Shown here piece by piece: positions 12,001-15,000 of a DNA stretch of 21,415 nt. Position numbers: made by a program. The stretch is from a virus (lineage: Duplodnaviria; Heunggongvirae; Uroviricota; Caudoviricetes): positions 1 through 21,415 of the IMG/VR virus record IMGVR_UViG_2617270975_000009. One strand, written 5' to 3'. Numbering within the stretch: position 1 is the first letter of the stretch; every line of letters starts with the position of its first letter.

Positions 12001-15000
12001 CTTGAATCTATAAGCGAGAGATACACCCGCTTGCTTCAGCTTTATGTAAACAAAGACAGAGAAATGAGCTTGATAAAAATATCTGATTTAATGAGTAGAG
12101 ATTTATAGCAAGCAAAATCCTACGTAAACGTTTTAAGTAAATTTCGCGATTTCCGCTTTGAATACGCTACTGTGTATTTCAAAGCGGATAATCTTCTCAA
12201 AAAAATATTTTATTTTTATCCGCTATCACCCATTCACCGGTTTGTTTAATCTCCTTTCTGTCTACTGATGTCCATTAAAGAAGATGACAGAATATAGGAG
12301 TAAACATGTCTCAATCATTTATTCGTCTTTCTGAGGTTCAACGCCGTACTGGTTACAGCAAAGCGTGGATTTATCGGCTCATCAAAGAACAGCGATTCCC
12401 TCAATCTGTAAAGATTGGAAGCCGATCAATTGCGTTTATTGAAAGTGAAATTGAAGAATGGATTAATCAGCGCATCGCTGAGTCGCGTGGCGAGGTAGCG
12501 TAATGAATAAGAAAAACCGCCCATTACAGGCGGCTAATTCAGATATTCGCGTATCTGATGTTACGCCCCTTACAAAATCCCTTCAAGCACCAAAGCGCAC
12601 ACCGAAAAAGCATCGTGCCAGAGTCTATATGCTGCGTACTGGTATAGAGGGATGGACAGAAAATGACATTCTTCGCTACTGCCGTCTGTCTTCTGGTCGT
12701 AACTATGCAACAGAGTTAGAACGCCAGCTTGGAATCACTCTGGAGCGTATCGACGAAAAGAATCCTGATGGTATCGGAACACACCTTCGCTACCGTTTCT
12801 CCTGCCGTGGTGATGTTCTGAAAGTGATCACTCATATTAACCATCTTGCGAACATAAATGATCACAACGGACTTTCTCAGCAGGAAATTGCCGACATTCT
12901 GAAACTCTACCCGGACGCGTTTAACGCCGCTTAACGGAGACTGAAAATGAACATCGAAAAAAGCAGATTAATTTCTGAGGCCGCCCCTCATCTGAACGCC
13001 TCTCTGAGCACAATTAACGGTAATGAATTTGCCGCAATTGTCCCGGTTATTCCTGGTCATATCGGTGGGCGTGAAACCAATATTGTTAGCGCAAAAGCGT
13101 TACACAAAGCGTTGGGCGTGGGAAAAGACTTCTCTACATGGATCACTGATCGCATCTCTGAATATGACTTCACCATTGGGCACGATTACTCAGTCCATAA
13201 AACTATTTCCCCAAATTTGGGGAAAAGCCCGAATGGCGTGGCTTACAGAAAGATTAAGCAGTCTGGCAGACCCGGCAAAGACTATCTGTTAAGTGTCGGA
13301 ATGGCGAAAGAACTGGCAATGATCGAACGCAATGATCAGGGTCGCGCTATCCGCCGTTATTTCATCCAGTGCGAGGAAGAATTACAGCGTAGCGTTCCTG
13401 AAATCGCCGCCCGCTATCGTCGCCAGCTAAAAGCCCGTATCAGTGCCGCAAACAACTTTAAGCCAATGTGCGATGCGCTGAATATGGCCCGTGCCGAGCA
13501 GGGGAAAACGACGCAGCAACACCACTACACAAACGAGAGCAATATGATTTCTCGTATCGTTCTTGGTGGGCTAACTGCTAAGCAGTGGGCGCGGATAAAT
13601 GGCTATTCTGGCGAACCTCGCGACCATATGAACGCAGAACAACTTGAGCACCTCTCATATCTCGAAAGCACCAATATCACGTTAATTGATATGGGCATGG
13701 AATATGAGCAGCGCAAAGGAGAACTCCCCCGCCTGTCGCAACGCTGGCTCGCTAAGCGTCTGGAGGTGGTCCATGTTTAAGCCGACAGGAACACCACAAC
13801 CTCAAAAACGCTACAAGGATGCCCACGGAGCACTCGTTACTGTCGAAAGCGTGTCTCACAACCGAGTGACGTTTTATCGCGACGGGTATCAATCGCCATG
13901 CGTACAACCGCTGGCGCGCTTCATGAAGGAGTTCGCGGAGGTTAACAAATGCTAACCGTCCAGAAGAAGATATTTTCACTGGCTGGTATGTCGCCAAAAT
14001 CCAGCAATATGACAGCAAAGTCTGGCATTAATACAGCAGATACAAGCAAAGTTTATCATTTTCTGGTGGTGGGAGCGGATGCCTTAACTATGTCAGAAAT
14101 TACGGTCGATGGTGTTAGCGTTGAGAAGGTCGGCGGCTGCGCCAGAGAATTTCTGGTCGTAGATGGCTTTCTCTGCTCGCGTAGTGACTCCACAAAAACC
14201 TTCGTCCACACGCGCGACGTTAACGAAATGAGCGCGATGTATTGTGCATCTGGTGCTTCCAATAGTGAGTTTTCGGAGTCCATAAAAAAGAGCTTGCCGT
14301 TATGCGGCAACACGGTTTATGGTTATAAGGCACCTCATAAAACGGGTGCCGGGTTTCGCAGCCCGGAAATGTACGAGGCGACACATGACGCGCCGAGCGT
14401 CTTTTTTTGTGCCGTTAGCCAGACTCACACTTTTTTCAGTGATGCGGTTATAATCCGCGTCGCTTGCAAAATTATGGTGGGCTGGACAGGGCAGCCGAAA
14501 GGCTGGCCGGTTTCCTTGTACGCCGGTACTGCGAACTCTGTTCAGTCCACCACCAGCGAGTTTCGCAGCTCCGGTGGTGGGAAGAACTCCCAGTACAAGG
14601 AGGCTGCCACATGCTGGCTACTACCCCTACCCAAAAACCGCAATTTATCTGGATTATCGCCGCAGTTCGCCGCGATTGCCCGACAATTACCGCCAAAATT
14701 CATCATATTGCTGCCGAGTCTGAACGCGATGCTCGCCGTTCTCTGGTGCGCGATCACATCTGCTTTTTTGCTGGTCGTATCCGCATGGAGGTGGCACATG
14801 ATTAAAACCTACGATGTGCATATGGATCCCCTCGAACGCACAAGCCAGATCATCACACTGACAGAAGTGATTAACGACATTCTGGTGAGCAACTCTCCCT
14901 CACGAGACGAAAGACTGAAGGCGTTACTCGCGATATTGGATCTCGCCGTTCGTGACGTTCATTTCCTGCTGGAAGGTGGCGAAATGCCAGGAAAAACGGG

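What the first reader, a model, noticed from the sequence alone, without database searches (positions are those of the whole stretch)
12306..13780. alpA, a 143 aa unknown and an antirepressor-like gene as one coupled unit
alpA is translationally coupled (TAATG) to a basic 143 aa unknown, followed 12 bp later by a 277 aa antirepressor-like gene. A satellite-encoded antirepressor directly under AlpA control suggests a mechanism for derepressing a resident helper prophage, analogous to P4 Epsilon acting on P2.
Basis: inference. Interest (0 to 1): 0.45.

Follow-up and report, generated by a model that had tools for sequence, protein, structure and literature searches.

The report
AlpA operon start of a phage satellite
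These three genes are the first cistrons of the helper-phage-inducible operon of an already published type of E. coli phage satellite (EcCIMP1-like PICI); the "antirepressor" is a swappable phage-type DNA-binding-domain protein whose antirepressor role rests on its name only.

Summary
alpA (12306-12503), a basic 143-aa gene (12503-12934, TAATG overlap) and a 277-aa AntA-domain gene (12947-13780, 12-nt gap) are tightly packed.

The unit is larger than three genes. Twelve co-directional cistrons run from alpA to the primase with no gap above 12 nt.

The island is a variant of the published PICI EcCIMP1, whose helper is the P22-like phage Kapi1. There the alpA promoter is helper-induced and AlpA autoactivates it. 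The window holds the excised or circular form with an IS3 insertion.

In 39 related loci across Enterobacterales, the alpA/143-aa stop-start overlap is kept in 37 of 39. A following gene starts 11-15 nt later wherever sequence is available. That third slot holds an AntA-type gene in 20 loci, Bro-N in 14, pRha in 2, a 55-aa ORF in 1, or Ash directly in 1.

The 143-aa protein is a winged-helix protein with no homologue in the phage collection searched.

The AntA protein lacks KilAC, P22_AR_C and P4-epsilon domains. Its AntA domain matches Listeria A118 Gp42, a 77%-identical homologue of AriS, where that domain down-regulates phage lytic genes rather than derepressing. Published EcCIMP1 and alpA deletions did not change helper titre after mitomycin C, and the EcCIMP1 deletion did not change CI-lux.

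Helper derepression is therefore unsupported, but not excluded. The finding is ordinary and largely known.

The parts
9688..9714 (+). attP junction of the circularly permuted island. It is a 27-nt att core that includes the published TCCTATTATC.
   Evidence: BLAST against the integrated copy L003 maps window 424-9714 to the island's right half and 9688-20139 to its left half. The core motif is given in PMC11773190. The window contains no tRNA.
9870..11084 (+). Tyrosine integrase (P4-type arm, central and catalytic domains).
   Evidence: Pfam Phage_int_M 1.3e-34, Arm-DNA-bind_3 and Phage_integrase. It is 97.5% identical to the EcCIMP1 integrase.
11145..11212 (+). int-alpA RNA motif (Rfam RF02996).
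   Evidence: 46.7 bits against a gathering score of 35.8, E = 5.5e-07. The same motif follows int in 6 of 8 relatives searched.
11227..12108 (+). DUF6387 cargo gene inserted between int and alpA. It is absent from EcCIMP1 of strain MP1.
   Evidence: Pfam DUF6387 3.7e-38. Window 11060-12311 has no match in L002 or L003. There is no PADLOC hit.
12109..12305 (+). alpA upstream region (presumed AlpA-activated, helper-induced promoter). It has an 11-nt perfect inverted repeat, TCCGCTTTGAA (12152-12162) and TTCAAAGCGGA (12178-12188), and a third half-site at 12216-12224.
   Evidence: the repeat finder pairs I3 and I5. Relatives carry other allele-specific repeated palindromes at the same place. Promoter activity is inferred from EcCIMP1 and EcCICFT073 reporter data (PMC11773190, PMC6092414).
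12306..12503 (+). alpA: AlpA/Vis-family HTH activator/excisionase, first cistron of the operon.
   Evidence: Pfam Phage_AlpA 8.9e-20. It is 39% identical to P4 Vis (2e-14) and 76% identical to EcCIMP1 AlpA.
12503..12934 (+). p143: a winged-helix protein with a disordered basic N-terminal tail, translationally coupled to alpA. It has no homologue in the phage collection searched.
12947..13780 (+). Slot X, here AntA-type. It comprises a shared ~20-aa leader, an AntA domain with a hypervariable insert (about residues 84-110), and a conserved C-terminal helical domain (about residues 136-277) that has no Pfam family.
13773..13955 (+). DUF4222 small protein, overlapping antA by 8 nt.
   Evidence: Pfam DUF4222 6.1e-25. 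The next gene overlaps the X stop by 8 or 1 nt in nearly all relatives.
13949..15016 (+). Ash/eta-like ORF spanning the RNA immunity region, overlapping DUF4222 by 7 nt.
   Evidence: Pfam Phage_ASH 2.3e-28 over residues 124-232. It is 41% identical over 49 aa to the P4 eta/cI ORF (1e-6).
14330..14407 (+). isrK/seqA-like RNA with an intrinsic terminator (stem 14387-14401 followed by a T-run).
   Evidence: Rfam isrK 69 bits, E = 3.9e-13. The terminator is in the scan. It is conserved in 6 of 8 relatives.
14470..14557 (+). C4/CI-type antisense immunity RNA.
   Evidence: Rfam C4 81.1 bits, E = 8.2e-15. It is conserved in 6 of 8 relatives.
14612..14806 (+). Icd-like small ORF immediately after the C4 RNA, in the same order as P1 c4-icd.
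   Evidence: RefSeq annotates the identical region in MP1 as an Icd-like protein. Coordinates were mapped through. There is no Pfam hit.
15009..16992 (+). Six small, acidic, overlapping ORFs of unknown function between the RNA switch and the primase.
   Evidence: ORF list and RefSeq annotation of H1. No significant Pfam or NCBIfam hits. pI values are 4.2-5.6.
16979..19735 (+). Primase-helicase (Zn ribbon, Toprim, DUF927), last gene of the operon.
   Evidence: Pfam DUF927 3.5e-47 and Toprim_3. It is 34% identical to the N-terminus of P4 alpha (5e-43).

Best explanation
The three genes are the first cistrons of one long, helper-phage-inducible operon of an EcCIMP1-type PICI satellite. The operon is built on the plan of the P4 left operon (vis - eta/CI RNA - ... 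- alpha).

1. A helper-dependent signal switches on the alpA promoter, and AlpA then boosts its own promoter. This is shown for EcCIMP1 and EcCICFT073 and inferred here.
2. Through a one-base stop/start overlap, AlpA is made together with p143. p143 is a winged-helix protein with a basic tail. It most likely binds DNA as an accessory regulator of the satellite. That role is inferred from fold, charge and near-invariant linkage.
3. The third cistron is an exchangeable slot filled from the phage 'Bro network'. It is AntA-type here and Bro-N, pRha or nothing in sister islands on the same backbone. I take it to encode a sequence-specific DNA-binding regulator aimed at the helper phage or at other co-resident elements. 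It would modulate their gene expression after induction. I do not take it to be a repressor-sequestering antirepressor. This step is inference.
4. Coupled translation continues through DUF4222 into the ash/eta-like ORF that overlies the isrK terminator and the C4 RNA. As in P4, this would let AlpA-promoter transcripts read through the RNA immunity switch into the replication genes. This is inferred by analogy with P4.
For: Island identity:
- From the 143-aa gene to the primase, proteins are about 91-100% identical to EcCIMP1 of E. coli MP1, most at 97-100%. The published att core is present.
- Helper-dependent alpA-lux induction, AlpA autoactivation, and alpA-dependent excision and transfer are published (PMC11773190; PMC6092414 for EcCICFT073).

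Single operon:
- Twelve cistrons run with gaps of 12 nt or less, or with overlaps.
- The consensus scan shows no + strand promoter-like site between alpA and ash, and no + strand terminator apart from one weak hairpin inside alpA.

Conservation of the coupling:
- The alpA/p143 one-base overlap is kept in 37 of 39 loci, and the p143-to-X spacer is 11-15 nt wherever sequence is available.
- The X stop is overlapped by the next start in nearly all loci.

p143:
- pI 9.65.
- Absent from 50,697 phage records.
- A narrow family of 92 representatives.

Slot X:
- 20 AntA-type loci plus the window, 14 Bro-N, 2 pRha, one 55-aa ORF and one Ash directly. L008, L010 and L011 carry AntA-, pRha- and Bro-N-type X genes while all three p143 proteins are 83% identical to the window's.
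- A shared 20-aa leader and a hypervariable insert in the AntA domain.
- This is the same AntA/Bro-N/pRha alternation reported for AriS-like phage regulators. The AriS AntA/AntB domain lowers phage lytic transcription after induction (PMC9043618). The island domain is 32% identical, E = 7e-18, to the AriS-like protein A118 Gp42.

Literature context:
- A 'Bro zone' after Int/AlpA has been described as a general GN-PICI feature. The same paper describes P4 eta as translationally coupled to vis, with eta translation preventing termination (PMC10111431).
- isrK and C4 lie downstream of X here and in 6 of 8 relatives.
- EcCIMP1 increases superinfection immunity against Kapi1 (PMC11773190). This fits a helper-directed negative regulator.
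Against: - No DNA-binding, transcription or interaction data exist for p143 or for this AntA protein.
- The AntA structure model has low confidence (pLDDT 61, pTM 0.40), so the APSES-like fold match is weak.
- The conserved C-terminal domain has no known function. Its only library hit is an unvalidated defence candidate, PDC-S22.
- The AriS result comes from a Gram-positive phage protein with a different C-terminal domain.
- The published null effects on Kapi1 were measured under saturating mitomycin C. They argue equally against a strong negative effect on an induced helper.
- The read-through-by-translation step is borrowed from P4 and was not tested here. In relatives the ash region is split between frames.
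Confidence: 0.5

Rival explanations
1. True antirepressor. The AntA-type protein binds and inactivates the immunity repressor of a resident helper prophage. This would lock in or trigger helper induction, for example after the satellite arrives in a lysogen, as P4 epsilon does to P2 C.
For: - Pfam and PHROG names carry the term (AntA/AntB antirepressor, anti-repressor Ant).
- The slot varies on a constant island backbone. This suggests an external, helper-specific target.
- Trans-acting antirepressors that cross-induce prophages exist in Salmonella (PMC3121763).
- P4 sets the precedent of a satellite-encoded derepressor.
- AlpA autoactivation could allow expression on entry into a new cell.
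Against: - The protein has no ANT/KilAC, P22_AR_C or PF25738 domain. The helper's own Ant proteins and P4 epsilon have them.
- The tested AntA/AntB domain (AriS) did not affect induction (PMC9043618).
- Deleting EcCIMP1 or alpA left Kapi1 titres unchanged, and deleting EcCIMP1 left CI-lux unchanged. EcCIMP1 strengthens immunity to superinfection rather than weakening it (PMC11773190).
- The alpA promoter responds to an already induced helper.
- The gene lies upstream of the C4/CI RNA, not downstream as P1 ant and P4 epsilon do.
- The slot is absent in L018.
Confidence: 0.17
2. Self-directed co-regulator. p143 and/or the AntA protein act on the satellite's own DNA. Possible targets are the alpA promoter palindromes, attP, ori, or the promoters of the isrK/C4 region. 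They would act as co-activators, recombination-directionality cofactors or replication accessory factors.
For: - p143 is linked to alpA in every locus examined and has no homologue in the phage collection searched.
- Allele-specific palindromes lie upstream of alpA.
- Both proteins are basic with DNA-binding-type folds.
Against: - For the AntA protein: the slot changes type (AntA, Bro-N, pRha) or is missing while the backbone stays the same. A cis-site partner on the island would be expected to co-vary with it.
- Many E. coli matches begin at the end of alpA. So p143 and antA recombine independently of alpA and its promoter, which also weakens a strict AlpA-promoter partnership for p143.
Confidence: 0.15
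3. Interference or defence effector. The conserved C-terminal domain is the active part. It would, for example, block helper or non-helper phage development or contribute to superinfection exclusion. The N-terminal AntA, Bro-N or pRha domain would act as a sensor or targeting module.
For: - The C-terminal residues 165-265 hit the PADLOC defence candidate PDC-S22 at 2e-10.
- The C-terminal domain is far more conserved (76-82%) than the N-terminal domain (50-67%).
- EcCIMP1 adds superinfection immunity without any recognised defence system (PMC11773190).
- PLE uses Bro-network-type proteins against ICP1 (as summarised in PMC10111431).
Against: - PDC-S22 is an unvalidated candidate. It may simply be a PICI-borne gene picked up by defence-island statistics.
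- Bro-N-type slot proteins have a different, short C-terminus.
- No nuclease, NTPase or toxin motif was detected.
Confidence: 0.1

Closest known systems
EcCIMP1, the PICI of E. coli MP1 with helper phage vB_EcoP_Kapi1 (Pick, Stadel & Raivio, ISME J 2025, PMC11773190)
   Same: - The island backbone and att core are the same.
- p143 is 98.6% identical and the AntA protein 97.8%. DUF4222 is 100% and the primase 99.6%.
- The paper already draws 'AlpA' and 'antirepressor' as the regulatory genes.
- It shows helper-induced alpA expression, autoactivation, and alpA-dependent excision and transfer.
   Different: - The window's AlpA is a different allele (76% identity).
- A DUF6387 gene sits between int and alpA.
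- An IS3 element is inserted after the primase.
- The sequence is in the circular, attP form.
- The paper did not test or discuss the 143-aa protein or the function of the antirepressor gene.
Satellite phage P4 left operon (PLL - vis - eta/kil with CI RNA - epsilon - orf151 - alpha)
   Same: - AlpA is related to Vis (39% identity), the ash ORF to eta, and the primase to alpha.
- A C4/CI-type RNA and a seqA/isrK-type element lie inside the ash/eta ORF.
- The first regulator gene is translationally coupled to what follows (PMC10111431).
   Different: - P4 has no p143, no AntA gene and no DUF4222 between vis and eta.
- P4's helper derepressor epsilon (Pfam PF25738) lies downstream of the CI RNA and has no homologue here.
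- There are no sid, delta or psu genes here.
'Bro zone' of Gram-negative PICIs and HE-PICIs (Williams laboratory, NAR Genom Bioinform 2023, PMC10111431)
   Same: - The order is Integration (Int, AlpA), then Bro-network proteins (AntA, Bro-N, pRha, Phage_ASH) with C4/isrK RNAs, then Replication, then Late genes.
- Domain swapping occurs among the Bro proteins.
   Different: - That survey does not single out the conserved AlpA-coupled winged-helix gene.
- It does not describe the shared 20-aa leader and fixed spacer that frame the exchangeable slot.
Listeria phage regulator AriS and its homologue A118 Gp42 (Cell Rep 2022, PMC9043618)
   Same: [quoted passage not shown]
- The same three N-terminal domains (AntA/AntB, Bro-N, pRha) alternate in one genomic slot.
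   Different: [quoted passage not shown]
- The island protein instead has an unclassified helical C-terminal domain. That domain is shared with pRha proteins in the rha slot of P22-like phages.
Phage P1 immI (c4 - icd - ant1/2) and P22 immI (mnt/arc - ant) antirepressor modules
   Same: - A C4 RNA is followed by an Icd-like ORF.
- A gene named antirepressor lies in the neighbourhood.
   Different: - In P1 the ant gene is downstream of c4 and controlled by it. Here antA is upstream and outside that control.
- P22-type Ant proteins carry P22_AR_C, as Kapi1_065 does. The island protein lacks it.

Membership tests
Gram-negative PICI, EcCIMP1 type | Co-directional int - alpA - primase core with no virion structural or lysis genes of its own. 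| tested here: met
   Int, AlpA and Toprim/DUF927 primase domains are present. The late region carries only DUF2824 and ejection-protein homologues, as in EcCIMP1.
Gram-negative PICI, EcCIMP1 type | Specific att site (tRNA-Thr, core TCCTATTATC). | tested here: met
   The core is at 9688 inside a 27-nt attL/attR overlap. Integrated copies lie next to tRNA-Thr.
Gram-negative PICI, EcCIMP1 type | Helper-phage-dependent induction, excision and transfer. | not testable with these tools
   This is shown experimentally for EcCIMP1 with Kapi1 (PMC11773190). The circular, attP form of this window is compatible with excision.
AlpA/Vis family regulator-excisionase | Phage_AlpA HTH domain and a position just downstream of int. 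| tested here: met
   Pfam 8.9e-20. P4 Vis is 39% identical. Here a DUF6387 gene intervenes between int and alpA.
AlpA/Vis family regulator-excisionase | Activation of its own promoter and requirement for island excision. | not testable with these tools
   This is shown for the 76%-identical EcCIMP1 AlpA and for EcCICFT073 AlpA (PMC11773190, PMC6092414).
Repressor-sequestering phage antirepressors (P22 Ant, P1 Ant1/2, KilAC proteins) | Presence of a domain found in experimentally proven antirepressors (P22_AR_N/C or ANT/KilAC). | tested here: not met
   Only PF08346 AntA was found at E up to 0.1. The C-terminal 142 aa gave no Pfam hit even at E up to 10. Kapi1_032 and Kapi1_065 do carry ANT and P22_AR_C.
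Repressor-sequestering phage antirepressors (P22 Ant, P1 Ant1/2, KilAC proteins) | Expression gated by an immI-type control placed upstream (C4 RNA, or Mnt/Arc). | tested here: not met
   C4 and isrK lie 550-700 nt downstream of the antA stop. The gene is instead inside the AlpA-led operon.
Repressor-sequestering phage antirepressors (P22 Ant, P1 Ant1/2, KilAC proteins) | Physical binding to a helper repressor and prophage induction on expression. | not testable with these tools
   There is no experiment on this protein. Indirect published data are negative. Deleting EcCIMP1 or alpA did not change Kapi1 titre, and deleting EcCIMP1 did not change CI-lux (PMC11773190).
P4 epsilon helper-derepression protein | Pfam 'Derepression' domain (PF25738) or sequence similarity to epsilon. 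| tested here: not met
   P4 epsilon hits PF25738 at 9e-51. None of the ORFs from alpA to the primase does. There is no BLAST or phmmer similarity at E up to 10.
Bro-network viral regulators (AntA / Bro-N / pRha / KilA-N N-terminal domains) | One of the network's N-terminal domains joined to exchangeable C-terminal modules, with domain swapping between homologous loci. | tested here: met
   The AntA domain is present. The same slot holds Bro-N (7e-16) or pRha (8e-6, below the Pfam cut-off; the SF10 homologue scores 5e-16) in sister islands. The C-terminal domain is shared with a pRha protein of phage SF10.
Bro-network viral regulators (AntA / Bro-N / pRha / KilA-N N-terminal domains) | Sequence-specific DNA binding. 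| tested here: inconclusive
Winged helix-turn-helix DNA-binding proteins (for the 143-aa protein) | Three-helix bundle plus beta-hairpin wing. | tested here: met

The most novel reading that the evidence does not exclude
The exchangeable slot after AlpA-p143 (AntA, Bro-N or pRha alleles with a hypervariable insert) could be a helper-specificity cassette. Its product would actively take control of resident prophages. It could do so as a new, KilAC-less class of antirepressor that lets a PICI induce its own helper. Alternatively it could reprogram helper transcription. p143 would be the satellite-specific cofactor that sets AlpA output. In that case Gram-negative PICIs would not merely wait for helper induction.
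Probability: 0.15. Interest if true: 0.65.

Novelty: new member of a known kind. Interest (0 to 1): 0.27.

Why it matters
How Gram-negative PICIs talk to their helpers is still open. The phage signal that switches on alpA is unknown, and no function has been shown for the 'antirepressor' genes drawn on PICI maps.

This locus gives three concrete handles.
- A winged-helix gene sits directly after alpA in all 39 related loci examined and has no homologue in the phage collection searched.
- A neatly framed slot exchanges AntA, Bro-N and pRha genes on the same backbone.
- A P4/P1-type RNA switch lies just downstream.

If the slot protein did act on helper repressors or promoters, it would explain helper range and the extra superinfection immunity seen with EcCIMP1. 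As it stands, the finding mainly warns that the label 'antirepressor' is name transfer, not evidence.

Tried and rejected
- **Solved structures:** sequence search gave nothing for the AntA protein and only noise for p143.
- **NCBIfam:** no family for any operon protein except a weak excisionase hit for AlpA.
- **Helper similarity:** I looked for island proteins in the helper Kapi1. Only the integrase matches, so there is no mimicry of helper regulators.
- **P4 epsilon homologue:** I looked among the small ORFs downstream of the C4 RNA and found none.
- **alpA promoter:** aligning the upstream regions across loci showed they are too divergent. Only allele-specific palindromes emerge.
- **Circular form in IMG/VR:** an attP-spanning pattern gave no match.
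- **Separate transcription of antA:** I considered that it has its own promoter. I rejected this for lack of any promoter-like site and because of the conserved 11-15-nt spacer.
- **Ash ORF as an annotation artefact:** I considered this. The ORF stays open over 1068 nt across structured RNAs and matches P4 eta, so I keep it as probably translated.
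Full report
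**1. What is in the sequence**

- alpA is 12306-12503 (65 aa). It matches Pfam Phage_AlpA at 8.9e-20.
- A 143-aa ORF follows at 12503-12934. Its ATG shares one base with the alpA stop (TAATG). It has a GAGG Shine-Dalgarno sequence inside the end of alpA.
- A 277-aa ORF follows at 12947-13780, 12 nt later. It matches Pfam AntA at 1.2e-21 over residues 47-129.
- The 143-aa protein is basic (pI 9.65). Its first 45 residues have pI 11.7.

The coupled unit does not end at 13780.
- DUF4222 (13773-13955) overlaps antA by 8 nt.
- A 355-aa Phage_ASH ORF (13949-15016) overlaps DUF4222 by 7 nt.
- Six small ORFs and a Toprim/DUF927 primase (16979-19735) follow, with overlaps or gaps of 10 nt or less.
- The consensus scan finds no promoter-like site on the + strand between alpA and ash. 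It finds only one weak terminator-like hairpin there, inside alpA at 12413-12427. The next + strand terminator is at 14387.

**2. What the element is**

The region from int to the primase matches hundreds of E. coli chromosomes. It is the published PICI EcCIMP1 of E. coli MP1.
- p143 is 98.6% identical, the AntA protein 97.8%, DUF4222 100% and the primase 99.6%.
- The window's AlpA is only 76% identical.
- The int-alpA interval carries an extra DUF6387 gene.

Pick, Stadel and Raivio (PMC11773190) reported the following for EcCIMP1.
- It excises, circularises and is transduced only with the P22-like helper Kapi1.
- An alpA-lux fusion is induced by mitomycin C only in Kapi1 lysogens.
- AlpA boosts its own promoter.
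- alpA and int are required for excision and transfer.
- Their map labels 'AlpA, antirepressor' as the regulatory genes. The antirepressor and the 143-aa gene were never tested.

The window itself is the circular form.
- It has an exact 391-bp terminal repeat.
- It has an attP junction at 9688-9714 containing the published core TCCTATTATC.
- It contains no tRNA.
- An IS3-family element is inserted after the primase.

**3. Architecture compared with P4 and P1**

Rfam finds three RNA elements.
- An int-alpA RNA lies just after int (11145-11212).
- An isrK/seqA-like RNA with its terminator lies inside the ash ORF (14330-14407).
- A C4/CI-type antisense RNA also lies inside the ash ORF (14470-14557).

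An Icd-like ORF follows C4 at 14612-14806.

Similarities to P4 are as follows.
- P4 Vis is 39% identical to AlpA.
- The P4 eta/cI ORF matches the ash ORF.
- P4 alpha matches the primase.

The backbone is therefore the P4 left operon. Three extra genes (p143, antA, DUF4222) sit between the Vis/AlpA gene and the RNA immunity switch.

P4's helper derepressor epsilon lies downstream of the CI RNA and belongs to Pfam PF25738. No ORF from alpA to the primase matches it.

The Williams laboratory has already described this layout as general for Gram-negative PICIs. The order is Integration (Int, AlpA), then a 'Bro zone' with AntA, Bro-N, pRha and Phage_ASH proteins and C4/isrK RNAs, then Replication, then Late genes. 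They recall that P4 eta is translationally coupled to vis and that eta translation prevents CI-dependent termination (PMC10111431).

**4. Comparative evidence**

A scan of one genome per species returned 39 loci from about 20 enterobacterial genera.

- In 37 of 39 loci an AlpA-family ORF ends in a one-base overlap (TAATG or TGATG) with the p143 start. L037 has a 4-nt overlap and L043 has directly abutting genes. Where the AlpA is too divergent for tblastn, Pfam still recognises it in the three such loci tested.
- In all 37 loci with sequence available, the next gene starts 11-15 nt after the p143 stop, usually 13 nt.
- That next gene varies:
  - AntA-type, 269-280 aa, in 20 loci plus the window.
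  - Bro-N-type, 195-200 aa, in 14 loci (Pfam Bro-N 7e-16 on a representative).
  - pRha-type, 231 aa, in 2 loci.
  - A 55-aa ORF in 1 locus (L031).
  - The ash ORF directly in 1 locus (L018).
  - Two loci are truncated after p143.
- The types alternate on near-identical backbones. L008, L010 and L011 carry AntA-, pRha- and Bro-N-type X genes, and their p143 proteins are all 83% identical to the window's.
- The different slot types share the first ~20 codons, which come in two leader alleles. The AntA- and pRha-type genes also end similarly, and the next gene overlaps the slot gene's stop by 8 or 1 nt.
- Within the AntA type, the C-terminal 142 aa are 76-82% conserved and the N-terminal part only 50-67%. 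A hypervariable insert lies at about residues 84-110.
- In E. coli the 1475-bp unit is present in 613 of 5426 complete genomes. Many matches start at nucleotide 188, the end of alpA. This shows a recombination joint there.
- isrK and C4 follow the slot in 6 of 8 relatives searched.

**5. The proteins**

p143:
- It gives a confident AlphaFold model (pLDDT 83). The model has a disordered basic tail (1-33) and a winged helix (35-134).
- The family is narrow, with 92 representatives at 50% identity.
- It is absent from 50,697 phage records.

The AntA protein:
- It has full-length homologues in only three phage records.
- Its AntA domain is widespread in phages.
- Its C-terminal domain has no Pfam family. 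That domain recurs behind a pRha domain in the rha slot of P22-like phages. It also hits the unvalidated PADLOC candidate PDC-S22 at 2e-10.

**6. Is it an antirepressor?**

The name comes from Pfam. The evidence points against a classical antirepressor.
- The helper Kapi1 carries two proteins built from domains typical of known antirepressors. Kapi1_032 is pRha plus ANT/KilAC. Kapi1_065 is Bro-N plus P22_AR_C and sits next to Arc-family regulator genes. The island protein has none of those C-terminal domains.
- The Listeria regulator AriS has the same AntA/Bro-N/pRha alternation. Its AntA/AntB domain, expressed alone, lowered phage early and late transcription, replication and virion yield after induction. 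It had no effect on induction. The KilAC domain carried the SOS-inhibiting activity (PMC9043618).
- The island's AntA domain is 32% identical (E = 7e-18) to phage A118 Gp42. Gp42 is 77% identical to AriS, and the same paper tested it for the KilAC activity.
- In EcCIMP1, deleting the island or alpA did not change Kapi1 titres after induction, and deleting the island did not change Kapi1 CI-lux. The island increased immunity to Kapi1 superinfection (PMC11773190).
- The gene is expressed from a promoter that responds to an already induced helper.
- The slot is dispensable in at least one relative (L018).

These points lower the antirepressor reading but do not exclude it. Mitomycin C induction may mask an effect, and entry of the satellite into a new lysogen was not examined.

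**7. Most likely mechanism**

*Shown or directly supported:* one tightly coupled, AlpA-led operon of an EcCIMP1-type PICI. Its first two cistrons are a near-invariant pair, and its third is an exchangeable Bro-network slot.

*Inferred:*
- p143 is a DNA-binding accessory regulator made in fixed ratio with AlpA.
- The slot protein is a sequence-specific regulator aimed at an external target, most likely the helper. The reason is that it swaps independently of the island backbone.
- Coupled translation running into the ash ORF lets AlpA-promoter transcripts pass the isrK terminator and C4 switch and reach the replication genes, as in P4.

I put about 0.5 on this package and about 0.17 on true antirepression. 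The rest goes to a self-directed co-regulator role or an interference/defence effector.

**8. Novelty and verdict**

- The gene arrangement, the 'antirepressor' annotation and the Bro zone after AlpA are all in the literature (PMC11773190, PMC10111431, PMC13612085).
- This window is a new allelic variant of a known island.
- Two modest additions come out of this analysis. I did not find either in the papers read here. First, alpA is followed directly by a winged-helix gene that has no phage homologue in the collection searched. Second, the exchangeable slot has a precise frame (shared leader, fixed spacer, overlapping exit).
- Interest is low to moderate. The finding is essentially explained, and the proposed helper-derepression mechanism remains an untested hypothesis.

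Noticed in passing
window 1-391 and 21025-21415; 9688-9714: The window has an exact 391-bp terminal repeat and an attP junction. It is therefore a 21,024-bp circle or tandem: the excised form of the island, not the integrated form. The window contains no tRNA-Thr.
   Followed up: yes
window 1-425 and 20140-21415: An IS3-family element with ALIL frameshift pseudoknots is inserted between the primase and the DUF2824/ejection-protein late cluster. Integrated relatives lack it at this position.
   Followed up: partly
window 14330-14806: A P4/P1-type RNA immunity module lies inside the 'ash family' ORF. It comprises isrK/seqA-like RNA with terminator, a perfect TATAAT at 14449-14454, C4/CI-like RNA and an Icd-like ORF. 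RefSeq annotates this region inconsistently. It is a 355-aa ash protein in some genomes and an ash pseudogene plus Icd-like protein in MP1.
   Followed up: partly
window 11145-11212 and 11227-12108: The int-alpA RNA motif (RF02996) follows int directly. Here a 293-aa DUF6387 cargo gene separates it from alpA by about 1.1 kb. EcCIMP1 of MP1 lacks this gene. It has no PADLOC hit.
   Followed up: partly
window 12152-12224; L010, L019, L020, L044 upstream of alpA: The alpA upstream regions are highly divergent between islands. Each carries 3-4 copies of an allele-specific palindrome (ACCCTnAGGGT in several relatives; TTCAAAGCGGA / AGCGGATAA here). These are candidate operator sites that might set helper or AlpA specificity.
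   Followed up: partly
window 786-5444: The late region encodes homologues of P22-like DUF2824 and DNA ejection/injection proteins. These resemble Kapi1_055-058 according to the EcCIMP1 paper. A satellite carrying ejection proteins rather than capsid or terminase genes is unusual, and its role in packaging or delivery is unknown.
   Followed up: no
L015 9284-9832; L041 1550-2137: In some relatives the AntA-type slot gene is followed immediately by a second Bro-N gene that overlaps it by 8 nt. The slot can therefore hold tandem Bro-network genes.
   Followed up: no
window 12947-13780 (residues 165-265): The conserved C-terminal domain of the AntA protein matches the PADLOC phage-defence candidate PDC-S22 (2e-10). 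It also matches the C-terminus of pRha proteins in the rha slot of P22-like phages (Salmonella phage SF10, 35% identity).
   Followed up: partly
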